Of a DNA stretch of 10,367 nucleotides, positions 1 through 10,367 are shown piece by piece. This DNA is from a virus. Its lineage: Duplodnaviria > Heunggongvirae > Uroviricota > Caudoviricetes. Position numbers and translations under genes: made by a program. Location: the IMG/VR virus record IMGVR_UViG_3300032893_000479, positions 1-10,367 of that record. One strand, written 5' to 3'. The notes below the pieces were generated by a model. The model did not search any database. It was given only the letters and a program-made list of their open reading frames with translations, and was not told the origin of the DNA. Numbering within the stretch: the stretch's first letter is position 1; each line of letters starts with the position of its first letter.

Positions 1-831
1 TCATATGTAACCCTCCCGCCGCCCTTCAACCGTATTGTAAAACGGCACGTCTCTATTAGCGATATCGAAATCGACTTTGAAAATAATGAATTTACCATTG
101 CAGCCCGGATTAAATTTGCTGTCGATAGTCAGTCGGCCGCCCAATTTTGTTTTTGGATCAAGCAAATATTTTACGCGCACGCCGTGCTCAGTTTGTTCAG
201 GAACACCGATCATTCCGCTGTTGGCGCTCAATACGTGCTCAACATTTTGCAACGGTTTTCCAACGTCTTTGACATACAACGTACCGTCTTCCACGAACGC
301 GTTAACATTGGCAATTTGATTTAATTTGCCCACTTGACGAATCGTCGCGCCTGCGAATTGATAATTTTCAACGTTCGTATCCGTCGCTTGGAATACTAGT
401 CCGACGCCAATATCCGACGCGATCCGAGCCGCTAGCGTGGACAATTTAATTGTTGACAGCATCGATCGTGCAACGATTGCGCCTGTTGCAAATTGATTGC
501 TAATAGCGCTCATTGTCAACGCTATTTCTGGCGGCTGACTTGCCTGAGCCCGCTGTATATCACCGCTGAACAATCTGTAATACCCCGTACTAGATCGTCC
601 AGCTTCGATAATCAACCGTTTTGGCGATCGCAAGAAATTGTAGGGGGTGACTTGCGTTAGAATATAATTGCGCACGTCGGCCGCGAGATTGTAAATAGTA
701 ACTGTAGCCTCGTTATTCAATTCGTTGGCGTACAGCGTGCCGCGCGCAACAATACGCAAATCATCGTAGTAGCGCATTTGCCCGTCGATTTGTATTCCGA
801 CGCGCAGCAAGCGATCGTCGAAGCTACCCAT
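1..831 (-). CDS. Hypothetical protein (276 aa), candidate baseplate hub / distal tail protein by position
   Basis: Complete ORF with ATG at 829..831 and stop TGA at 1..3. Third gene after the TMP in the same orientation. Function inferred only from synteny. Confidence 0.4.
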   Translation of the reverse strand: MGSFDDRLLRVGIQIDGQMRYYDDLRIVARGTLYANELNNEATVTIYNLAADVRNYILTQVTPYNFLRSPKRLIIEAGRSSTGYYRLFSGDIQRAQASQPPEIALTMSAISNQFATGAIVARSMLSTIKLSTLAARIASDIGVGLVFQATDTNVENYQFAGATIRQVGKLNQIANVNAFVEDGTLYVKDVGKPLQNVEHVLSANSGMIGVPEQTEHGVRVKYLLDPKTKLGGRLTIDSKFNPGCNGKFIIFKVDFDIANRDVPFYNTVEGRREGYI

Positions 832-1144
832 TGCGCAAATTCTCCAACTCGGCGCCAGTCATGAATAACAAAAAATGCGTCGTTCCGAATTTTGTATAAT
901 CAGGATATTCCAGATTGGTATCCCAGTAGAAATTGCCGTAGCCGGCTTCAAGGTACCGATAAGGCAAAATACCTGTTATGGGCATGCAACGTGTATTTTG
1001 TATTAAGGTTATGCCGTCGCGAATAACGGTTGAAAACATCATACCCGACTCAATCGTTCGCAACGTGATGTCGTACCTCACGTTATCGAACGTGATCGTA
1101 AAATTCTGATTTGGTAATTGCTGAAGCGGTATATTTTGCGGCAT
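824..1144 (-). CDS. Hypothetical protein (106 aa), probable tail/baseplate-associated component
   Basis: ATG start overlapping the upstream stop by 1 nt (TAATG), and overlapping the downstream gene by 8 nt. Coding is supported by operon context. No motif recognised. Confidence 0.4.
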   Translation of the reverse strand: MPQNIPLQQLPNQNFTITFDNVRYDITLRTIESGMMFSTVIRDGITLIQNTRCMPITGILPYRYLEAGYGNFYWDTNLEYPDYTKFGTTHFLLFMTGAELENLRNG

Positions 1145-1635
1145 TAGTAAAAAATCCTATGCAATATAGATTCGCTGCCACTTTGTTCGCCGCGCTTTAC
1201 CGTAGACTGATCGGTAGGTTTGCGAACATTGTTTGCCGCCAATTGTTGAAATTGCGCTTTAACAAATATTGCTTGTTTCAAATTGATAACGATTTTAATT
1301 GTTTTCCACAATTCCGGTTCTTCCTCATGCGGCATGCTAACGATAATCATATCCTGATACACATCGGACCGCGTTTGCACGATGAGCTTATCGCCGCTAA
1401 TCCAACGTTGCTTAATCGCAGCGTAAACGTCTTTAGCGTCATTTCCCGGTATCATCACGATCAAATCTATTTCCACCGGATCGATCACGCGGGCGTCCGT
1501 GATGCTGATTCCACTTTCTAGCGGATGTTCGAACGATCTGGACGTTTCGAAAATAGACGCGCGCATTGCTTCCGATGTCGGAAACAATTGCGTGTAATCC
1601 GCGTCATATAGACCAACAATTTCTTGTTCTGTCAT
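1144..1635 (-). CDS. Hypothetical protein (163 aa), probable tail/baseplate-associated component
   Basis: ATG start overlapping the TMP stop (ATGA). First gene after the TMP, where distal tail or baseplate initiator proteins are normally encoded. Acidic composition. No motif recognised. Confidence 0.4.
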   Translation of the reverse strand: MTEQEIVGLYDADYTQLFPTSEAMRASIFETSRSFEHPLESGISITDARVIDPVEIDLIVMIPGNDAKDVYAAIKQRWISGDKLIVQTRSDVYQDMIIVSMPHEEEPELWKTIKIVINLKQAIFVKAQFQQLAANNVRKPTDQSTVKRGEQSGSESILHRIFY

Positions 1636-3197
1636 GCCATCAGCCCGTCATCGTGTTGATAGATAGCGCTGTTGATATACAACTTTAAGGCGTCGCTGAT
1701 ATTTTGCGCCACTTCGTTGGCATCTTTCGCTTCGGTTATTACGTCGATTTTATCGATGCTGATTGAATTTTGCTGACTACGAGCTGTCGCCATATTTGTG
1801 ATCGAAGATGATGTCTGCGGCAGCAGCGGATTACGCGACATCATTGCTAATTGTTGTTGCGCGTTATTTGTCAGCGGATTTTCTATTTGCGGTAAATCAA
1901 CGGCACCGCTTTCTGGATTGAACATATCTTTAAATTTTTGCCATATTTCAGGTATTTTTGAAATTTTATCAACAACGAAATTGAAAACTTTTTGGACCCA
2001 GTTGAAATAAACTTCCCACGCTTTTGATGCAAACTCAGCGGCACTCGCGGCAGCTTCGCCAAACCATCGCAGCGCCTGCGCAGTTTTCGGAAAGCGTTTT
2101 TCCAGTTTGTCCAAAAATTTATCCATGCTTGCGCCAGCAGTTTCTAATGCGGCGCTAAAGCCTTTTGTAAAAACATCTGATAAGAAGTCGGCAACGATAC
2201 CGATCCATTCTTTCAAATATTTAAAAACTTCGACAACTTTATCGATTGCCTCTTTAAACAACGGATATTTTTTTGCCAACTCACCGATCACGCTTGCGTG
2301 ACCGTTTAAATACGCATTGAAATCGTCCCAAATAAGCGCGGCGGCGGCGGCCACTGCAATCAACGCCATCCACGGGGCGAGAAATGCAATGGTTGCAATC
2401 GTCGCTCTAACGAGCGCTGGAACAAGGATTCCCGATAATGCAACGCCAAGCGATACAAAAAATTTCGTCATGAATGCGCTGTTGTTTCGCATCCACATCA
2501 ATATTTTTTCCAGCAGTTTGAAAAACTCGGTGAGATATGGCATTACCGCCACGGCAAGCCGACGCTTGATATCTTCAAAAACTAAGTTCGTCATGCGTTG
2601 CTGAATCACGAACTTAGTTGAAATTTCGACTTGTTCTTTTGTTACAACGCCAAGTTCTTTTTGTTTGGCAATGAATTCGTCTAGCGCTTTGCCGCCCATT
2701 TGCAGCAGATTGATCGTGCCGATATCGAGACCGAAACGCTCGCCCAATCGTTGCGCTTGAATTTTGCTAAGCCCTTCGAATCTTCCCTGTATCTGCTTCA
2801 GCGTTTCGATAGGGTCGCGACCGTAACGACTCAATGCTTCAAGACTGCGCGCAAATCCTTCCGCCGTGCCGCCTGCTAGCTCCGCAGCCTGTGTCCACGC
2901 GCTATACTGCTCCGCCGATACTTTTGCTTGTTGCGCGTTTAGCCCGAGCTGTCGCGTGCTTTCAGCAACGTCGAATACCATCGATTTCAGGGAATGAAAT
3001 GCGAGAAAGCTCGCACCGAGCGACGCCGCACTTTTAACGGCATCGACAAGGTGCTTGCCGAGCATGTCGGCCGCTTTATCGGTTTTATTGAGGGTGTCGC
3101 CGAGTTGTTTGCTTTGCTTATCGGAATGCGCAAGCCCTTCGTCCAGTTTGCTGGCGTCGGATTCGAACAGGAAGTAAAAAACGTCGAGAATATTCAC
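1632..3197 (-). CDS. Tail tape measure protein (TMP)
   Basis: 521-aa ORF immediately 3' of the chaperone/frameshift pair. Predicted largely alpha-helical, with a long central hydrophobic segment (approx. residues 246..290, FFVSLGVALSGILVPALVRATIATIAFLAPWMALIAVAAAAALIW) typical of TMPs, plus regularly spaced aromatic residues. Apparent start is GTG at 3195..3197, preceded by AGGA at about 10-nt spacing. The stop overlaps the next gene as ATGA. Confidence 0.8.
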   Translation of the reverse strand: MNILDVFYFLFESDASKLDEGLAHSDKQSKQLGDTLNKTDKAADMLGKHLVDAVKSAASLGASFLAFHSLKSMVFDVAESTRQLGLNAQQAKVSAEQYSAWTQAAELAGGTAEGFARSLEALSRYGRDPIETLKQIQGRFEGLSKIQAQRLGERFGLDIGTINLLQMGGKALDEFIAKQKELGVVTKEQVEISTKFVIQQRMTNLVFEDIKRRLAVAVMPYLTEFFKLLEKILMWMRNNSAFMTKFFVSLGVALSGILVPALVRATIATIAFLAPWMALIAVAAAAALIWDDFNAYLNGHASVIGELAKKYPLFKEAIDKVVEVFKYLKEWIGIVADFLSDVFTKGFSAALETAGASMDKFLDKLEKRFPKTAQALRWFGEAAASAAEFASKAWEVYFNWVQKVFNFVVDKISKIPEIWQKFKDMFNPESGAVDLPQIENPLTNNAQQQLAMMSRNPLLPQTSSSITNMATARSQQNSISIDKIDVITEAKDANEVAQNISDALKLYINSAIYQHDDGLMA

Positions 3198-3756
3198 TAT
3201 CGATTATTCCTGTTCGCATGCTCTGCGGCTAAGTATTCGTTGGCGCGCCGTACAATCAGAACCTCCGCCATATCACAGAGGTCTTGCAACGTGTAGACCG
3301 TGGCCAGCTCATGCGGCGTCGCTAATCTTTCGCCGGTGACTGCGCCCGCAATTGGGTCAACATTTGCGTAATCAATGCTTGGAACTTGCCCGAGAATTGA
3401 TCGAGGTAATGTGACAGCGCGCCTTTCGCGAAAAAACTGCAATTGTATTCCATCATTGCCCACTCGATCCGTATCAGCGCCTCGTAATCTGGTACATGGT
3501 TGTTGATGAGATCGAGAGAACCCAACCGCAGAGGGTCGGCGCCCGCAATGGGCACCGCAACATGCGACAGAATTTTTATCATCAGCGCTTCGTTAGTTTT
3601 GTAGTCGCCAATTTTCGGCGCGGCAGTCAGCGGATATTGCGTGACAATTTCACGACCTGCCGTTGCCGAAAATTTACTGATGATAAAAATTTTTTCCGAT
3701 CCGTCCATGAGCTTTATCGGTTGTTCTTTTGGCTGTAGCAGCGGAAGATGATTCAT
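3197..3756 (-). CDS. Tail assembly chaperone, long form produced by programmed -1 frameshift (approx. 186 aa: frame 0 from 3756 to the slippery site, then -1 frame to 3197)
   Basis: Frame-0 codons AGT TTT TTC (plus coordinates 3438..3430) give, after a -1 slip, CAG TTT TTT CGC..., which continues open for 77 codons to a TAG at 3197..3199 that overlaps the TMP start. The -1 frame ORF has no credible independent start (the track's start is a GTG in the middle of the chaperone gene with no RBS). Confidence 0.55.
3322..3756 (-). CDS. Tail assembly chaperone (short, in-frame form; gpG/gp E-like role)
   Basis: 144-aa ORF immediately 5' of the tape measure gene. An overlapping ORF (3197..3463) in the -1 frame runs from inside this gene to exactly the TMP start, and a T_TTT_TTC slippery heptamer lies in the overlap. 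This is the conserved chaperone frameshift architecture of tailed phages. Confidence 0.65.
   Translation of the reverse strand: MNHLPLLQPKEQPIKLMDGSEKIFIISKFSATAGREIVTQYPLTAAPKIGDYKTNEALMIKILSHVAVPIAGADPLRLGSLDLINNHVPDYEALIRIEWAMMEYNCSFFAKGALSHYLDQFSGKFQALITQMLTQLRAQSPAKD
3430..3436 (-). other. Putative -1 programmed ribosomal frameshift slippery heptamer T_TTT_TTC (X_XXY_YYZ)
   Basis: Plus-strand gaaaaaa at 3430..3436 is TTTTTTC on the coding strand, positioned as T TTT TTC relative to the chaperone frame. It lies in the overlap between the chaperone ORF and the -1 frame extension ORF. A short GC-rich palindrome (CGCG AAAGG CGCG) follows immediately but is a weak and atypically close stimulatory element. 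Confidence 0.55.
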
Positions 3757-4199
3757 AGTGCGGACACCTTATTTTCGAATGCGAAAATGTAGGGCTTTGA
3801 CTTCATGCGCCCCTGACTCGCAACAGGATTGCCCGGAATGGCCGACGTGATAGCCCCTTTCGACAAAGTGATCACATTGCCGCTCGGGTAAACCAGCGTC
3901 AAAGTTATGATATCGCGTGCGGGCCGCTTGCCTGCGGCAACACGATTCGCCTCCGCAATAATGCCGAGCGCGATATCGTCGAGCGAACCGGGCACCACGG
4001 CCAGCGTTGCCATGATGGGGTTAGGCTTTGACCATGTGATCAAATTGCCGTTGAGCCCCATTGCAGTTTGCGCCAGCTCCAAGGCTGCGATATCGAGCGG
4101 ATCGATATCGTCGGCGAACTGCGTGATAGGCACGCCGACCGGAAAAGTAACGCTAGCCTTAACCGTGGCGATTAGACCAAAACCTGAAATATCGGACAT
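3753..4199 (-). CDS. Putative tail tube protein
   Basis: 148-aa ORF with ATG start and a good RBS, positioned between the putative sheath and the tail assembly chaperone. Size and position are typical of myovirus tube proteins. The final 4 nt overlap the chaperone start (ATGA). Confidence 0.55.
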   Translation of the reverse strand: MSDISGFGLIATVKASVTFPVGVPITQFADDIDPLDIAALELAQTAMGLNGNLITWSKPNPIMATLAVVPGSLDDIALGIIAEANRVAAGKRPARDIITLTLVYPSGNVITLSKGAITSAIPGNPVASQGRMKSKPYIFAFENKVSAL

Positions 4200-4215: not shown

Positions 4216-5730
4216 TTAGATTAAGTTGTGAGTGCCTTCGACTTTGCGGATCACGTCATCTTTCGAATAGATCAGCAAATACGTTGCTTTATAGATGGTT
4301 TGATTGTTGACGACTTCCGGCACGATAACGACATTGTACCAGTAGCCAATGCCTTGCACTTGTTGCCAAGCGTTGCTATCACCGCTCTGCAACGCAATAT
4401 CGGCCTTTTGCAACGGCGTAAGCACTTTGCCGATGCTAATTGTACCGTTGAACAGTGCTTGATCTACGCCGTCTTGAAGTAGATTGAGGCATATCGAGCG
4501 ACCGGCTTCGTCAGCATCGATTTTCGGCAGCACCAGCAACGCGTTCATGAACGACGCAGTGAGATACGACGACAACCACTGTTCGTTGCCGTAAACGTTT
4601 TGATCTGCCGGCGACGTATTCGGACCAAACAGCGAACCGCGCTGATAGAAAGATACGTTCTGACCGTTGATCTGCGTGTTACCGTAATAGTTAACGCGAA
4701 TCGCATCCAGCGAGTCCGACGTGGGCGTATCGGTAACCAATGCGGTCACCGGAAATTGTTGGAACATATAGTTGGACGTTGAATTTTGTTTCGTGTAGTC
4801 CGTTGCCGCAAGCTGAATCATCGGAATCATTTCCGGGTATTCGTTCGGATAATTTATCGGATCGTTTATCGTCATGGCGGTCCCCGCGATTTGACCGATC
4901 GCAGACGCGATTACCGACGCAGACGCTTGATCACAGGCGAGCATGAATTGGTACGAGACACTATTTGACGCGTTCCATTCTACAATTTCTGCCCAATCGC
5001 CTATGTCCGTAGTTGCCATGAACAAAAACGAACCGTAATTATTACTTATCTGATCTGCTGCAATAACTGCATCTAATGCCGACGAACCAGCCGTGCCGAC
5101 AACATCGATTGCGCCATCCGCAACGTACAGATTTAGCAAATTTCCAACATCGGTAGCACCTGAGCCGGCCTGTAAAAATGTAAGTGAACCTGCGCCCGCA
5201 ACACCGCCAACAACAACGAATCGATTATTCGTCGAATCGTAGGTTACCGTGCAAGTGGTCAGCTGCGGATCGGAGTTCGTTCGCAAACGCGTTTGCAACA
5301 ACGAAGCAATGTTGGCGTAGCTAGTGGCAGTCGAGAAATTGATGCTACCGATTGAGATAGGGCCGCCACCAGTGCTTACCGATACGGTACCGGCCGTAGT
5401 GGAAATAAGGCCGCTCAGAGCAGTCGGCGATTTTCCGCCGAATACACGGGCAGCAAACGCGTTCGGCTGCCAGCCAGCAAAACAAATCTTTTTCGCCTGG
5501 GTTAGCTGTTTGGAAACCCAGCCAAAATAAAACGCTGCACGACGATACTCTTCTGATGAAGTGCCAAAGAATGCGGCAACATCATCTACCGATGTGTATT
5601 CGATGATGTTATCGGTAGATACTAACGGATTGCTAGTAAAAATTCTTCCGATAAGCTCGCGCACTTGCACAATAGCCGAACCGCCGACACCAGACCGAAT
5701 ATCAACATATTTGCGGTAATTAATGGACAT
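4216..5730 (-). CDS. Putative contractile tail sheath protein (DUF3383-like by recollection)
   Basis: 504-aa ORF with ATG start and a strong RBS. Located directly 5' of a ~150-aa tube-sized gene, then chaperone/frameshift and tape measure, which is the canonical myovirus order sheath-tube-chaperone-TMP. Size is typical of phage sheaths. Contains a G/S/T/A-rich low-complexity internal region. Family assignment was not verified by search. Confidence 0.6.
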   Translation of the reverse strand: MSINYRKYVDIRSGVGGSAIVQVRELIGRIFTSNPLVSTDNIIEYTSVDDVAAFFGTSSEEYRRAAFYFGWVSKQLTQAKKICFAGWQPNAFAARVFGGKSPTALSGLISTTAGTVSVSTGGGPISIGSINFSTATSYANIASLLQTRLRTNSDPQLTTCTVTYDSTNNRFVVVGGVAGAGSLTFLQAGSGATDVGNLLNLYVADGAIDVVGTAGSSALDAVIAADQISNNYGSFLFMATTDIGDWAEIVEWNASNSVSYQFMLACDQASASVIASAIGQIAGTAMTINDPINYPNEYPEMIPMIQLAATDYTKQNSTSNYMFQQFPVTALVTDTPTSDSLDAIRVNYYGNTQINGQNVSFYQRGSLFGPNTSPADQNVYGNEQWLSSYLTASFMNALLVLPKIDADEAGRSICLNLLQDGVDQALFNGTISIGKVLTPLQKADIALQSGDSNAWQQVQGIGYWYNVVIVPEVVNNQTIYKATYLLIYSKDDVIRKVEGTHNLI

Positions 5731-7245: not shown

Positions 7246-7688
7246 CAAAAACTACCGCCAAATTTGCGGAAGCCTGCGCGCTCGCAGCTGCCGCCAATAT
7301 AAAAACCGCCTGACGATTTGACGCTGAAAAAAGCCCACAAACGCATGCCGTATGGCGTCAGAGATAGCCATTGCTGCCACGCATTTTTAACGGGTGGCGC
7401 TTGCACGGTGACGCTAACCTTATCGATCGATGACGCAGTGACCGCGCCGACTTGGCCTTGACCGCGCTGCGCGTTGAGATTTGCTTGCCACTGCATCATG
7501 TGAGCGGTCATCAAATAAAGCGCCTCGGTGATTTCTGCCGCGCTCATCAGACACCATTCCTGCGGATACAGATAAACTTTCGCCGTATCGAAATACGCTT
7601 GTATATAGGCGTCGGAATACGCCGAAGTGCTGGCGAATGCCGGAAATTCTGCGCGAAAATCTGCAATGACAATAACAATATCGCTCAT
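7245..7688 (-). CDS. Putative head-tail adaptor/connector protein (DUF4054-like by recollection)
   Basis: 147-aa ORF with ATG start and 4-nt ATGA overlaps to both neighbours. Small protein between a head-proximal gene and the neck genes. The N-terminal sequence (MSDIVIVIADFRAEFPAFAS...) resembles the phage adaptor family I recall as DUF4054; this was not verified by search. Confidence 0.45.
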   Translation of the reverse strand: MSDIVIVIADFRAEFPAFASTSAYSDAYIQAYFDTAKVYLYPQEWCLMSAAEITEALYLMTAHMMQWQANLNAQRGQGQVGAVTASSIDKVSVTVQAPPVKNAWQQWLSLTPYGMRLWAFFSVKSSGGFYIGGSCERAGFRKFGGSF

Positions 7689-9454
7689 GATTTTAACCCG
7701 TAAGCCGGTTTGACTCCCGAATAGTTTATCGTGTTTTCGTTCGAATAGACGGGGCTTTTGTAATTTTGCTCAGGAATCAAAATAGGCGGCGTGTAATTGT
7801 TGTCGAAAGTATCGCTAAACAACGACAAAGCGCGAGTGCGCAATCCGTTCAATGGTACGTAAAGGGGATCGCCGATTGTGTAAACGCCGTACCCCACCGC
7901 AGTGGCAGAGTCTTGATACAAACAAATTTCAGCTGCATTAAAACCGGAATAAATTGCGCTAATGTACAAATTAGAATACACGGCACCGGCTTCGCTTGGC
8001 TCAGTAACACATGCCGAAGAAAATACCGCACCCGAGCGAATAGCGCTAAGCACTCGGTTTTCGCAAGTGTACGTACTAGTTTTGAGCTGCCATCCGTTCG
8101 CGTAGCAATAAGCCGCAAGAGCGTCCCAAATTTGACGCATGCTCAAACCTTGCCACACCAATGAAAAACTTGTCGTCGTACCGTCTGCTTTTAGCACGAT
8201 GTTAGTCGTTGTCAAATCAATTTTTGCTGCCGTCGACGGTCCGCGCACGCCGAAAGTGGCTACGTAATTGCCGAGTTCATTTTTTATTTTTACTTGCATG
8301 ACGGGGCTGTTGCCAGCCGAATAATAGTTATTCCATTCGGCATCTTCGCTGCTGTCCCAACCGGCGACAATATTGCTGCCGGTCTGGATGTCGCCAGCTG
8401 CAAGGGGTGTCGTCCAACATACGCCTATCGGAAATAATGGCGCGGCCGGAGTGCTGGTGTGGAACACTGCGATGGCACCGAGCGCATATGAATAATCTGC
8501 AGCGACTTCAGCGGGACGATGCGGACCGTAATAACTATCGTCGAGCACCGCGCGCATGAATACGCCGCTGGTCGGCACGAAGCCGTCATTTCCGGGCGCT
8601 TCTATTGCGCCCGGACCTTCGTCGGGAAATATGCTCGGCGGATTGCCGCGATAGTATTGCGCAAGCCTGTCATCCAGATAGTACGGATAATTATCGATAA
8701 ATAAATTTTCTGTTTGTCGTCCGTTGCGATCGACGATGTTCGGAATGTTGAATTTCGGCGGTAAATGCACGGCAAGCGTGGTCACCCACGCTTGCCGGTA
8801 CGTCTGCGAGTAAAGTTTTGGAATACTCGTTCGATTTAATTGTTCGGCAGCAATGCTGCGATCGATGATACCTTTTGCAAAAGTCTCATCGTAGTTTGTC
8901 GATACCGGCATGTTGAAAACAGATACAACATCAAGCGGTGTCGTGTACGGGTGCAAATATTTTTGCGGATTGACTTCGACCATGAACGCGGGCAGCGTCG
9001 GCTTCGGACTGATCGGCAAATTTTGCAAATTGGCGTTTGCTTGCGCCTGCGTAGGATCAGGATTTGCAACAATGCCGACAGTAGAAATGTTTGGATTTGC
9101 TGCGATGTAATCGGAAATTTTGAAAAGATTTTTGCAGATCACTGAATTGGTCAAATCGCCAATACCGGGCAAATAAGGGAAATCGATCGCAGGACAAGTG
9201 CCAATGAAAAGAATAACTTTCAGGCCGCCTGCGACAGGATGATTAATCATCGTATCGAGAAAAGTTTTAACATCGGCCCACGTAGTCAATCTTGCCGATG
9301 TATCCAATGCGCCGGACAATAGTAATTTGTTTTGCGCGGGAACGTTGCGTTGCGCCATGTAATAATTGAGCACATCGACAGCGGCCGGCACTGACGAACG
9401 TGCGACAACGAGAATATCCGCAGGCGTGATAGGCACGGGGGTGATGATCGCCAT
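7685..9454 (-). CDS. Large hypothetical structural protein (589 aa); candidate major capsid or head decoration protein by position, function unknown
   Basis: Long uninterrupted minus-strand ORF with ATG start at 9452..9454, preceded by GGAG (plus coordinates 9463..9466) at 8-nt spacing. Sits immediately 5' of the putative head-tail adaptor gene and overlaps it as ATGA. Composition is N/S/T/Y/G/P-rich. I recognise no motif. Confidence 0.5.
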   Translation of the reverse strand: MAIITPVPITPADILVVARSSVPAAVDVLNYYMAQRNVPAQNKLLLSGALDTSARLTTWADVKTFLDTMINHPVAGGLKVILFIGTCPAIDFPYLPGIGDLTNSVICKNLFKISDYIAANPNISTVGIVANPDPTQAQANANLQNLPISPKPTLPAFMVEVNPQKYLHPYTTPLDVVSVFNMPVSTNYDETFAKGIIDRSIAAEQLNRTSIPKLYSQTYRQAWVTTLAVHLPPKFNIPNIVDRNGRQTENLFIDNYPYYLDDRLAQYYRGNPPSIFPDEGPGAIEAPGNDGFVPTSGVFMRAVLDDSYYGPHRPAEVAADYSYALGAIAVFHTSTPAAPLFPIGVCWTTPLAAGDIQTGSNIVAGWDSSEDAEWNNYYSAGNSPVMQVKIKNELGNYVATFGVRGPSTAAKIDLTTTNIVLKADGTTTSFSLVWQGLSMRQIWDALAAYCYANGWQLKTSTYTCENRVLSAIRSGAVFSSACVTEPSEAGAVYSNLYISAIYSGFNAAEICLYQDSATAVGYGVYTIGDPLYVPLNGLRTRALSLFSDTFDNNYTPPILIPEQNYKSPVYSNENTINYSGVKPAYGLKS

Positions 9455-10367
9455 TACAACAACTCCACGCAGACGGCGCGAGCGCTCATCGTGAACTCAT
9501 TCGGCGACACGATCGACAAGTTATTTATGCCGATAATCAAACGCACGTTGATATCGACAGATATGCAAGGATAATTTGTCGGACCGAAAGCGAAATCTCC
9601 GTTGTAAATGGGTATTGCGTCGCTAGGCGAACCGCCTTTTTTAATTGTCAATGTGCCGCCCGTATTCGACACGTGGAAAGGAATTTCAAAAGAGCCGACT
9701 TTTCCGGCGTATGTGCCGCGTGTGCCTTTTATGGCGACAAAAATTCGTCCAACAAGATCGCCTTGTCGGTTATTGGTGCCGGCCATTGACAAGAATTCGC
9801 CGCCAGAAGTGAATTGATCGAACGTAAAACGCGGTACGACTACGTCCACGCTTTGCGAAAATCCTTCATTCGCAAATACCACGCTATTGTTATACAGCGA
9901 GTCGATGCCGTAGCCGGCATGGAACAACGGCGAAATCGATGAGATTAGATTGCCGAACCCAAAAACGATATTTTGGCTTTGCAACTGATAGCCCGCATTT
10001 CCGCTCCCTATGCAAATACTGAAAGGGCCGGAAATACTGTTATTCATCCCCCATATGAAATTATAAATAACGTTCGCATTCGGATCGAAAGTAATATCGT
10101 CAAAAGTGATAACCGATTGTTGATATGCTTTGCCGAATTCTGCCGGCAATTGTTTGATTGCCGCTTTTGTTTTGATATTGTTGTAGCCGCTTGTCGCATC
10201 GCCGATATCAATATTGATGCTATACAGCATCGCGCTTAATGCCGGCACTACGCCGGACATCGAACACTGAAGTGCATTGCCAAAAAATCGAATTTCATTG
10301 ATCACGGTGGCGACGCCGACAGTCAGCATCGGCAGCTGAAAGACTGCGACTTTTTTAGCAGCGGTGC
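9454..10367 (-). CDS. Hypothetical protein, probably virion (head-associated) structural protein; 5' end likely outside the window
   Basis: Minus-strand ORF 9454..10329 (291 aa from the first ATG). The same frame stays open with no stop from 10330 to the window edge at 10367, and there is no Shine-Dalgarno motif before the ATG at 10329, so the true start is probably beyond the window. Stop TAA overlaps the ATG of the next gene by 1 nt (TAATG). Protein is rich in N/S/G/T/Y/F, which suggests a beta-rich structural protein. No family recognised. Confidence 0.5.
   Translation of the reverse strand, partial: TAAKKVAVFQLPMLTVGVATVINEIRFFGNALQCSMSGVVPALSAMLYSINIDIGDATSGYNNIKTKAAIKQLPAEFGKAYQQSVITFDDITFDPNANVIYNFIWGMNNSISGPFSICIGSGNAGYQLQSQNIVFGFGNLISSISPLFHAGYGIDSLYNNSVVFANEGFSQSVDVVVPRFTFDQFTSGGEFLSMAGTNNRQGDLVGRIFVAIKGTRGTYAGKVGSFEIPFHVSNTGGTLTIKKGGSPSDAIPIYNGDFAFGPTNYPCISVDINVRLIIGINNLSIVSPNEFTMSARAVCVELL
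9463..9466 (-). promoter_or_regulatory. Shine-Dalgarno motif (GGAG) for the 589-aa gene
   Basis: Minus-strand sequence GTGGAGTTGTTGTA ATG: GGAG lies 8 nt upstream of the ATG at 9452..9454, inside the 3' end of the upstream gene. Confidence 0.4.

What the first reader, a model, noticed from the sequence alone, without database searches (positions are those of the whole stretch)
1..1635. Three small proteins after the tape measure (163, 106, 276 aa) with no recognisable baseplate signatures
In myovirus modules the genes directly after the TMP encode distal tail or baseplate hub, spike and wedge proteins, often with recognisable features such as LysM or lysozyme domains, gpJ-like wedges or glycine-rich spikes. 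Here the three translationally coupled genes are short and show none of these by eye; the 163-aa protein is markedly acidic. They may be a divergent or minimal baseplate initiator set, with the larger hub, wedge and fibre genes lying beyond position 1. Small proteins in this slot directly affect host range and injection.
Basis: inference. Interest (0 to 1): 0.5.

Follow-up and report, generated by a model that had tools for sequence, protein, structure and literature searches.

The report
Ordinary inner baseplate core of a myophage
The three small genes after the tape measure are recognisable members of three known phage baseplate families (tube initiator, plug/spacer, central hub) already seen in cryo-EM structures of phages Pam3, E217 and Pa193, so the locus is ordinary.

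Summary
The three minus-strand ORFs (163, 106 and 276 aa) exist at the stated coordinates and overlap one another and the tape measure gene. The claim of "no recognisable baseplate signatures" fails once profiles are used. The 163-aa protein is a Dit-like tube initiator (Pfam PF21821; family profile hits Pam3 gp17 at 4e-10 and E217 gp37 at 1e-8; the predicted fold matches). The 106-aa protein is the Pam3 gp18 / E217 gp33 / Pa193 gp34 plug, also called adaptor or spacer (PF22479; pLDDT 96 model, TM 0.82-0.86 to the solved proteins). The 276-aa protein is itself the baseplate hub (PF22759 E217_GP41, 7.6e-76, full length). The parent metagenome contig continues past position 1 with spike, sheath initiator, two wedge proteins and a fibre. 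That gives the gene order implied by the gene numbering of the minimal myophage Pam3. The same order holds in most of 80 related viral contigs. The acidity of the 163-aa protein is mild (pI 4.96) and is not conserved in its family. Verdict: a new member of a known kind, of low interest. In passing, I found a G/GT-type -1 frameshift site in the tail chaperone gene, and two large ORFs without recognisable relatives (369 and 589 aa) in the head-neck region.

The parts
1632..3197 (-). Tape measure protein, 521 aa, GTG start. Its stop overlaps the start of the next gene (ATGA).
   Evidence: PHROG tape-measure families: phrog_34923 1.6e-38, phrog_8125 3e-19. No Pfam hit. It sits between the chaperone pair and the baseplate genes.
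1144..1635 (-). Tube initiator (Dit-like; Pam3 gp17 / E217 gp37 / Pa193 gp38 family), 163 aa. It has an N-terminal tube-like beta-sandwich (about residues 8-121) and a C-terminal arm with two short helices (140-149, 158-162).
   Evidence: Pfam PF21821 Dit_like, 6.6e-11, 42.9 bits against a cut-off of 24.2. Family profile A1 against the PDB: Pam3 gp17 4.1e-10, E217 gp37 9.9e-9, Pa193 gp38 1.2e-8. AF2 model pLDDT 84. Foldseek: 8eon_A 1.9e-8, 7yfz_a 1.1e-5, SPP1 Dit 7e-4.
824..1144 (-). Baseplate plug / adaptor / spacer (Pam3 gp18 / E217 gp33 / Pa193 gp34 family), 106 aa. Two-layer beta-sandwich plus a C-terminal helix.
   Evidence: Pfam PF22479 Pam3_gp18, 2.3e-15. phmmer against the PDB: Pa193 gp34 5e-7, E217 gp33 9e-7. 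Profile A2: 7e-20, 1e-19, and Pam3 gp18 5e-4. AF2 pLDDT 96. Foldseek TM 0.86 / 0.84 / 0.82 with rmsd 1.5-2.2 A.
1..831 (-). Baseplate hub (E217 gp41 / Pa193 gp42 family; counterpart of Pam3 gp19), 276 aa.
   Evidence: Pfam PF22759 E217_GP41, 7.6e-76, residues 8-270 on profile positions 1-279 of 279. PHROG 196 baseplate hub 1.4e-45. PDB: 8eon_E gp41 5.9e-20, PhiTE hub 4.5e-5, Phi92 gp137 7.6e-4, Pam3 gp19 0.055.
3753..4199 (-). Tail tube protein, 148 aa. Context: the tube that is predicted to grow from the 163-aa initiator ring.
   Evidence: Pfam PF22764 E217_Gp32, 7.8e-56.
4216..5730 (-). Tail sheath protein, 504 aa. Context: it shows that the tail is contractile.
   Evidence: Pfam PF11863 (E217 gp31-type sheath) 8.3e-102; PHROG 205 tail sheath 1.2e-46.

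Best explanation
The three genes encode the inner core of a simple (Pam3/E217-type) myophage baseplate.

Inferred from the solved homologues:
- Three copies of the 276-aa hub form the trimer that carries the spike, which is encoded just beyond position 1.
- Six copies of the 163-aa tube initiator form a tube-like ring on the hub. This ring bridges the three-fold hub to the six-fold tube and seeds polymerisation of the 148-aa tube protein around the tape measure.
- Six copies of the 106-aa plug sit between the C-terminal arms of the initiator, the hub and the helical bundle of each wedge. They latch the outer wedge ring to the central hub-spike.
- When the wedge ring rearranges on triggering, the plug is released (E217 loses gp33 and the tail tip on contraction). 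The hub-spike is then freed, the sheath contracts and DNA exits through the tube.

Shown here: family membership, predicted folds, gene order and its conservation. Inferred from homologues: stoichiometry, contacts and release.
For: - Family membership of all three is above the curated Pfam cut-offs.
- Direct and profile sequence matches go to chains built into cryo-EM maps of the E217, Pa193, Pam3, PhiTE, Phi92 and Bas63 baseplates.
- Predicted structures match those chains. For the 163-aa protein, Foldseek gives 1.9e-8 to E217 gp37 and 1.1e-5 to Pam3 gp17. For the 106-aa protein, TM is 0.82-0.86 to Pa193 gp34, E217 gp33 and Pam3 gp18.
- The parent contig, whose reverse complement is identical to the window, continues with a spike (PF18352 4.4e-16), a 113-aa gp25-like sheath initiator (phrog_120 5e-15; weak PF10934), a 400-aa wedge (phrog_6 1e-35), a 219-aa wedge (PF11041 4e-41) and a 535-aa fibre (phrog_26622 2.6e-41).
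- This is the order implied by Pam3 gene numbering, gp13 to gp24 (PMC9942802).
- The order tube > TMP > 163 > 106 > hub > spike > sheath initiator > wedge > wedge is complete in 53 of 80 related IMG/VR loci. Of 76 loci with enough upstream DNA, 73 have both small genes. It also holds in Leptolyngbya phage Lbo-JY16 and two metagenome contigs.
- The roles of the homologues are described in PMC9942802 (tube initiator hexamer, six plugs, trimeric hub), PMC10329688 (gp33 adaptor lost on contraction), PMC11456595 and PMC11972413 (the spacer adapts the outer C6 environment to the inner C3 one).
Against: - No direct evidence exists for this phage: no virion proteomics, no structure, no cultured isolate.
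- Single-sequence matches of the 163-aa protein to solved proteins are weak (E 0.014-0.066). The assignment rests on the Pfam hit, the family profile and the predicted fold.
- The C-terminal arm of its model has low confidence (pLDDT 51-67 over residues 131-163), so the proposed clamp on the plug is not shown.
- The published descriptions of what the plug homologue touches differ. E217 gp33 binds the gp37/gp38 C-termini. Pa193 gp34 binds the hub. Pam3 gp18 lies between the initiator helices and the wedge bundle.
- PHROG labels for the 163-aa protein are inconsistent ('tail fiber protein', 'endolysin'). I take these as annotation noise.
Confidence: 0.9

Rival explanations
1. The cap is of the Pbunavirus (E217/Pa193) type rather than the Pam3 type. 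In that case the 163-aa protein acts as one half of a heterodimeric 'ripcord' pair beneath an extra tube-B ring, and not as a homohexameric tube initiator.
For: The best fold and single-sequence matches of the 163-aa protein are E217 gp37 and Pa193 gp38 ripcord-1. The plug and hub are also closer in sequence to the E217/Pa193 proteins than to the Pam3 ones.
Against: Only one Dit_like gene and one tube gene are annotated on the whole 22.7-kb contig, which runs from terminase to lysis genes. No paralogue and no tube-B gene lie between the tube gene and the wedge genes. The gene order matches Pam3 numbering, with the TMP gene before the initiator, whereas Pa193 numbers its TMP gp41, between ripcord-2 gp39 and hub gp42. 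The family profile scores Pam3 gp17 best (4.1e-10).
Confidence: 0.07
2. One or more of the three are assembly-only or otherwise non-structural proteins, such as chaperones, that are absent from the mature virion.
For: They are small and translationally coupled, and no proteomics exists for this phage.
Against: Homologues of all three are modelled in the mature virion maps of several phages (PDB 7yfz, 8eon, 8env, 9b45, 9cuy, 9ndy). A separate chaperone pair lies upstream of the TMP gene.
Confidence: 0.02
3. The small proteins are host-range determinants, that is receptor-binding or receptor-modulating factors.
For: Some PHROG families that match the 163-aa protein carry the label 'tail fiber protein'.
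Against: In every solved homologue these proteins lie in the inner core, between tube, hub and wedge, and not at the periphery. A separate 535-aa fibre gene with a conserved fibre N-terminus lies downstream. The three proteins are conserved at 37-44% median identity across 80 loci, like the other core parts, which is not the pattern expected of fast-evolving receptor binders.
Confidence: 0.01

Closest known systems
Cyanophage Pam3 minimal baseplate: gp17 tube initiator, gp18 plug, gp19 hub (PDB 7yfz; PMC9942802)
   Same: The run of sheath, tube, two intervening genes, tube initiator, plug, hub, spike, sheath initiator, wedge, wedge and fibre matches the order implied by Pam3 gene numbering gp13-gp24, and there is a single initiator gene. 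The family profile of the 163-aa protein hits gp17 best (4.1e-10). The 106-aa protein belongs to the Pfam family named after gp18, and its model superposes at TM 0.82. Sizes are similar (gp17 191 aa, gp18 106 aa, gp19 229 aa).
   Different: Sequence similarity is low (16-20% in the fold alignments). The hub matches Pam3 gp19 only weakly by sequence (E 0.055) and is 47 residues longer. I did not examine whether the Pam3 disulfide-linked wedge and fibre arrangement applies here.
Pseudomonas phages E217 and Pa193 (Pbunavirus) baseplate cap and adaptors: gp37/gp38 ripcords, gp33/gp34 adaptor ('helical bundle'), gp41/gp42 hub (PDB 8eon, 8env, 9b45; PMC10329688, PMC11456595)
   Same: The hub is a full-length member of PF22759, about 26% identical by tblastn (E 6e-20 by phmmer). 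The plug model superposes at TM 0.84-0.86 with 29% identity. The initiator shares the gp37 fold (Foldseek 1.9e-8). The neck, sheath and tube proteins of the window also fall in E217-named Pfam families.
   Different: E217 and Pa193 have an extra tube-B ring (gp36/gp37) and a heterodimeric gp37/gp38 pair. Here only one Dit-like gene is present. Gene order also differs: by their gene numbers, the Pbunavirus adaptor and sheath initiator genes directly follow the tube gene, and Pa193 numbers its TMP gp41, between ripcord-2 gp39 and hub gp42.
Tube initiator, spacer and hub of other simple myophage baseplates: PhiTE (9cuy), Bas63 (9ndy), Phi92 (21vq), XM1 (7kh1)
   Same: Significant fold or profile matches exist for the corresponding proteins. 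The PhiTE paper describes the spacer as an adaptor between the outer C6 wedge ring and the inner C3 hub.
   Different: They are more distant, and the PhiTE tube initiator carries large N- and C-terminal insertions that are absent here.
Leptolyngbya phage Lbo-JY16 (PP438408), the closest sequenced isolate
   Same: Gene-for-gene synteny from the sheath gene through the wedge genes. The hub is 43% identical.
   Different: Its three proteins are annotated only as 'structural protein' or 'baseplate protein'. It lacks the two large ORFs that this contig carries between the capsid and adaptor genes.

Membership tests
Dit-like tube initiator (Pfam PF21821; Pam3 gp17 / E217 gp37) | Sequence score above the curated family threshold | tested here: met
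   42.9 bits against a cut-off of 24.2, E 6.6e-11. All 33 relatives carry PF21821. Profile A1 hits Pam3 gp17 at 4.1e-10 and E217 gp37 at 9.9e-9.
Dit-like tube initiator (Pfam PF21821; Pam3 gp17 / E217 gp37) | N-terminal tube-like beta-sandwich/barrel fold | tested here: met
   The AF2 model has pLDDT above 89 for residues 11-120. Foldseek hits are tube initiators, Dit proteins and tube proteins only: 8eon_A 1.9e-8, 7yfz_a 1.1e-5, 2x8k SPP1 Dit 7e-4.
Dit-like tube initiator (Pfam PF21821; Pam3 gp17 / E217 gp37) | C-terminal arm with two helices that reaches outward to the plug and wedge | tested here: inconclusive
   The model shows helices at 140-149 and 158-162, but with pLDDT 51-67. T145 and G149 are invariant in the family. 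No multimer model could be made.
Dit-like tube initiator (Pfam PF21821; Pam3 gp17 / E217 gp37) | Hexameric ring between the tube and the trimeric hub in the virion | not testable with these tools
   This needs cryo-EM or a multimer prediction.
E217/Pa193 heterodimeric ripcord pair (gp37 + gp38) | Two paralogous Dit-like genes plus a tube-B gene | tested here: not met
   The 22.7-kb contig has only one PF21821 gene and one tube gene. PF22760 Gp38_E217 scores below its cut-off (17.7 against 27).
Baseplate plug / spacer (Pfam PF22479 Pam3_gp18; E217 gp33, Pa193 gp34) | Sequence score above the curated family threshold, in a single-domain protein of about 100-110 aa | tested here: met
   57.3 bits against 24.2, residues 3-96 on profile positions 2-100 of 101. 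Profile A2 hits Pa193 gp34 at 7e-20, E217 gp33 at 1e-19 and Pam3 gp18 at 5e-4. The median length of 78 relatives is 105 aa.
Baseplate plug / spacer (Pfam PF22479 Pam3_gp18; E217 gp33, Pa193 gp34) | Two-layer beta-sheet (Ig-like) fold with a C-terminal alpha-helix | tested here: met
   The AF2 model has pLDDT 96.3, seven strands and helix 97-105. TM is 0.86, 0.84 and 0.82 to 9b45_A, 8env_G and 7yfz_h.
Baseplate plug / spacer (Pfam PF22479 Pam3_gp18; E217 gp33, Pa193 gp34) | Six copies wedged between hub, initiator and wedge; released on contraction | not testable with these tools
   Known for Pam3 and E217 from cryo-EM. Inferred here.
Baseplate hub (Pfam PF22759 E217_GP41) | Full-length match above the curated threshold | tested here: met
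   255.4 bits against 27, covering profile positions 1-279 of 279. PDB 8eon_E 5.9e-20 over residues 7-270.
Baseplate hub (Pfam PF22759 E217_GP41) | Followed by, and partnered with, a trimeric spike gene | tested here: met
   The next gene on the contig (237 aa) has the PF18352 spike N-terminal OB domain at 4.4e-16 and a faint GpV apex motif. The hub-then-spike order holds in 80 of 80 related loci.
LysM / lysozyme-bearing hub or spike proteins (P2 gpX, T4 gp5 type) and gpW/gp25 sheath initiator | A LysM, lysozyme or GPW_gp25 domain in any of the three proteins | tested here: not met
   No such Pfam hit at E<=1 for any of the three. The gp25-like protein is the separate 113-aa gene downstream (phrog_120 5e-15; weak PF10934).

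The most novel reading that the evidence does not exclude
This uncultivated lineage has Pbunavirus-like hub and plug sequences but Pam3-like gene order and part count. It may build the smallest cap of the E217-like phages: a single homohexameric initiator ring that makes the 6-to-3 symmetry transition by itself, with an unusually short C-terminal arm (163 aa, the shortest of its 34 relatives, whose median is 183 aa). It would then be an evolutionary intermediate between the two solved architectures. Relatives number at least 80 IMG/VR contigs, many of 40-47 kb.
Probability: 0.35. Interest if true: 0.2.

Novelty: new member of a known kind. Interest (0 to 1): 0.12.

Why it matters
It matters mainly as annotation. 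The three 'hypothetical' genes after the tape measure in this phage can be named tube initiator, plug/spacer and hub. So can their counterparts in at least 80 related viral contigs and in isolates such as Leptolyngbya phage Lbo-JY16, where they are labelled only 'structural protein'. It also shows that the Pam3-type simple baseplate module is widespread in metagenomes. It does not open a new question about injection or host range.

Tried and rejected
- Megablast of the whole window against 50,697 phage records found nothing.
- Single-protein word-index searches found only the query itself for the 106-aa protein and the 589-aa protein. The exhaustive representative search was needed for the 106-aa family.
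- A single-protein scan of IMG/VR with the hub found no relative. A three-sequence alignment was needed.
- NCBIfam added nothing beyond a below-threshold 'phage protein' subfamily hit for the hub.
- Antisense + strand ORFs inside the region (1111..1521, 77..319, 493..660) have no family support and were dismissed as spurious.
- An Rfam scan of the window found no RNA family.
- Acidity of the 163-aa protein was rejected as a functional hallmark because it is not conserved in the family.
- The PHROG labels 'tail fiber protein' and 'endolysin' for the 163-aa protein were rejected as annotation noise, given the fold and the PDB matches.
Full report
**Observation**

All long ORFs of the window lie on the minus strand and form one late-gene array. 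The three ORFs of the finding are real:
- 1635..1144 (163 aa)
- 1144..824 (106 aa)
- 831..1 (276 aa, with its stop codon at the first three bases of the window)

They follow a 521-aa protein (3197..1632) that matches tape-measure PHROG families (phrog_34923, 1.6e-38). The junctions are ATGA, TAATG and an 8-nt overlap. No promoter-like or terminator-like site above the shuffle expectation lies in 1-3400. Both points fit a translationally coupled operon.

'Markedly acidic' is overstated. The 163-aa protein has pI 4.96 and net charge -7, while the sheath (4.50) and a neck protein (4.32) in the same window are more acidic. Family members range from pI 4.5 to 9.2.

**What the proteins are**

Profile searches overturn the title of the finding.
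- The 163-aa protein matches Pfam PF21821 Dit_like: 42.9 bits against a cut-off of 24.2.
- The 106-aa protein matches PF22479 'Cyanophage baseplate Pam3 plug gp18': 57.3 bits against 24.2.
- The 276-aa protein matches PF22759 'Baseplate hub gp41' over the whole profile: 255 bits, E 7.6e-76.

Direct sequence searches of the PDB hit chains built into cryo-EM maps of phage baseplates.
- The 163-aa protein hits E217 gp37, Pa193 gp38 'ripcord-1' and Pam3 gp17 'tube initiator', but weakly (E 0.014-0.066).
- The 106-aa protein hits Pa193 gp34 and E217 gp33 (5e-7 and 9e-7).
- The 276-aa protein hits E217 gp41 / Pa193 gp42 'tail hub' (5.9e-20), then the PhiTE hub, Phi92 gp137 and, faintly, Pam3 gp19.

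**Strengthening the two weaker assignments**

For the 163-aa protein, 33 relatives were found, all carrying PF21821, and aligned (A1). The profile hits Pam3 gp17 at 4.1e-10, E217 gp37 at 9.9e-9 and Pa193 gp38 at 1.2e-8.

An AlphaFold2 model (mean pLDDT 84, and above 89 over residues 11-120) shows a beta-sandwich with one long helix, followed by a low-confidence C-terminal arm with two short helices. Foldseek against the PDB returns E217 gp37 (1.9e-8), Pa193 gp38, E217 gp38, Pam3 gp17 (1.1e-5) and the PhiTE tube initiator. Tube and Dit proteins of many tailed phages and tailocins follow, including SPP1 Dit.

For the 106-aa protein, the word-index search found only itself. The exhaustive search of 1.84 billion cluster representatives found 503 relatives at E<=1e-3, nearly all about 100-110 aa. 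A 78-sequence profile (A2) hits Pa193 gp34 (7e-20), E217 gp33 (1e-19), Pam3 plug gp18 (5e-4), and the Phi92, PhiTE and Bas63 'spacer' proteins.

Its model is very confident (pLDDT 96.3). It superposes on Pa193 gp34, E217 gp33 and Pam3 gp18 at TM 0.86, 0.84 and 0.82, with rmsd 1.5-2.2 A. After seven baseplate proteins, nothing else in the list is significant.

**Surroundings**

An exact-sequence look-up placed the hub on a 22.7-kb ENA metagenome contig. The reverse complement of the window is identical to part of that contig.

Beyond position 1 the contig continues with:
- a 237-aa spike (PF18352 OB domain, 4.4e-16)
- a 113-aa gp25-like sheath initiator (phrog_120 5e-15; weak PF10934)
- a 400-aa wedge protein (phrog_6, 1e-35)
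- a 219-aa wedge protein (PF11041, 4e-41)
- a 535-aa fibre (phrog_26622, 2.6e-41)
- small genes, including a weak M15 peptidase hit and DUF7940

Upstream of the window the contig has terminase, portal, Mu-F-like, scaffold, cement and major capsid genes. Within the window, the neck, sheath and tube proteins fall into E217-named Pfam families.

The run of sheath, tube, two intervening genes (here the chaperone and the TMP), initiator, plug, hub, spike, sheath initiator, wedge, wedge and fibre matches the order implied by Pam3 gene numbering gp13-gp24. In that paper gp13 is the sheath, gp14 the tube, gp17 the tube initiator, gp18 the plug, gp19 the hub, gp20 the spike, gp21 the sheath initiator, gp22/gp23 the wedge and gp24 the fibre (PMC9942802).

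**Conservation**

The closest sequenced isolate is Leptolyngbya phage Lbo-JY16 (hub 43% identical), with gene-for-gene synteny. Two other metagenome contigs show the same TMP > Dit_like > Pam3_gp18 > E217_GP41 order.

A scan of IMG/VR with a hub alignment gave 80 loci, with hubs 37-49% identical and many contigs of 40-47 kb. By tblastn, 53 of them show the complete order tube > TMP > 163 > 106 > hub > spike > sheath initiator > wedge > wedge. Most of the rest show truncated versions of the same order. Of 76 loci with enough upstream DNA, 73 have both small genes. The module is therefore a conserved and common one.

**Mechanism (inferred from the solved homologues)**

- In Pam3, a trimeric hub carries the trimeric spike. 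[quoted passage not shown] Six plug monomers sit between those helices and fix the wedge helical bundle to the hub. Dissociation of the wedge ring is proposed to release the plugs and then the hub-spike (PMC9942802).
- In E217, the adaptor gp33 binds the C-terminal ~40 residues of gp37/gp38. On contraction gp33 is lost together with the tail tip, while the wedge 'nut' travels up the tube with the sheath (PMC10329688).
- In PhiTE, the spacer adapts the outer C6 environment to the inner C3 one (PMC11972413).

I therefore assign the 276-aa protein as the hub trimer, the 163-aa protein as the homohexameric tube initiator, and the 106-aa protein as the releasable plug or spacer.

The contig has a single Dit-like gene and a single tube gene, so the cap is of the Pam3 type. 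It is not the Pbunavirus type, which has a tube-B ring plus a gp37/gp38 heterodimer. Even so, the plug and hub sequences are closer to the Pbunavirus proteins than to the Pam3 ones. Stoichiometry, contacts and release are inferences and were not shown here.

- The baseplate assignment and the prediction that wedge and fibre genes lie beyond position 1 are correct.
- The premise of 'no recognisable signatures' is wrong, because the families were defined from the 2023-2024 cryo-EM structures and are in Pfam.
- The 'larger hub' beyond position 1 does not exist. The 276-aa protein is the hub.
- None of the three has a LysM, lysozyme or gp25 domain. The gp25-like protein is a separate downstream gene.
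- These are inner-core parts, so a role in triggering and injection is plausible, but a role in host range is not.

**Verdict**

This is an ordinary, well-understood module: a new member of a known kind, useful mainly for annotating these genes in related phages and contigs.

**Noticed in passing**

1. The 144-aa gene between the tube and TMP genes has a canonical -1 slippery heptamer, T_TTT_TTC, at 3436..3430. Behind it an open -1 frame runs to the TMP start. This predicts a G/GT-type chaperone pair.
2. Two large ORFs lie between the capsid genes and the head-tail adaptor gene: 369 aa (partly in the window) and 589 aa (9454..7685). Neither has a Pfam, PHROG, PDB-sequence or phage-genome match. 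For the 589-aa protein, the 5.8-billion-protein collection holds only the protein itself. Related genomes have only one ~130-141-aa gene in that slot.

Noticed in passing
window 3197..3756 (- strand); slippery site at 3436..3430: The 144-aa ORF between the tube and tape measure genes (3756..3322) contains a canonical -1 slippery heptamer, T_TTT_TTC, at codons 107-109. The -1 frame is open from there to 3197, at the tape measure start. This predicts a lambda G/GT-type pair of tail assembly chaperones, of 144 aa and about 185 aa. The gene caller of the source contig left this stretch uncalled.
   Followed up: partly
window 7685..9454 (- strand, 589 aa) and 9454..10367 (- strand, C-terminal part of a 369-aa ORF; full gene at L001 269-1378): Two large ORFs lie between the major capsid gene (plus a 129-aa gene) and the E217 gp27-like head-tail adaptor gene. 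Neither has a Pfam, PHROG, PDB-sequence or tblastn match in 50,697 phage records. The 589-aa protein found only itself in the 5.8-billion-protein search, apart from a faint N-terminal 34-residue NCBIfam TIGR03790 hit far below its cut-off. Related genomes (L003 Lbo-JY16, L005) have only one ~130-141-aa gene in this slot. It looks like a lineage-specific insertion, possibly a head decoration, head fibre or moron.
   Followed up: partly
window 9454..10329 (- strand): The 291-aa ORF listed in the window is a truncation artefact. On the parent contig the gene is 369 aa and starts beyond the window end, at 10563 on the window's scale.
   Followed up: yes
L007-L086 (IMG/VR loci): At least 80 uncultivated viral contigs, many of 40-47 kb, carry the same tail-baseplate module, with hubs 37-49% identical. 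This indicates a sizeable and mostly uncultured group of Pam3/Lbo-JY16-like small myophages.
   Followed up: partly
L001 15629-16054 and 16071-16346: Downstream of the fibre gene the contig has a 142-aa protein with weak M15 peptidase hits, a likely endolysin as in Lbo-JY16. It also has a 91-aa DUF7940 protein (9e-22) of unknown role.
   Followed up: no
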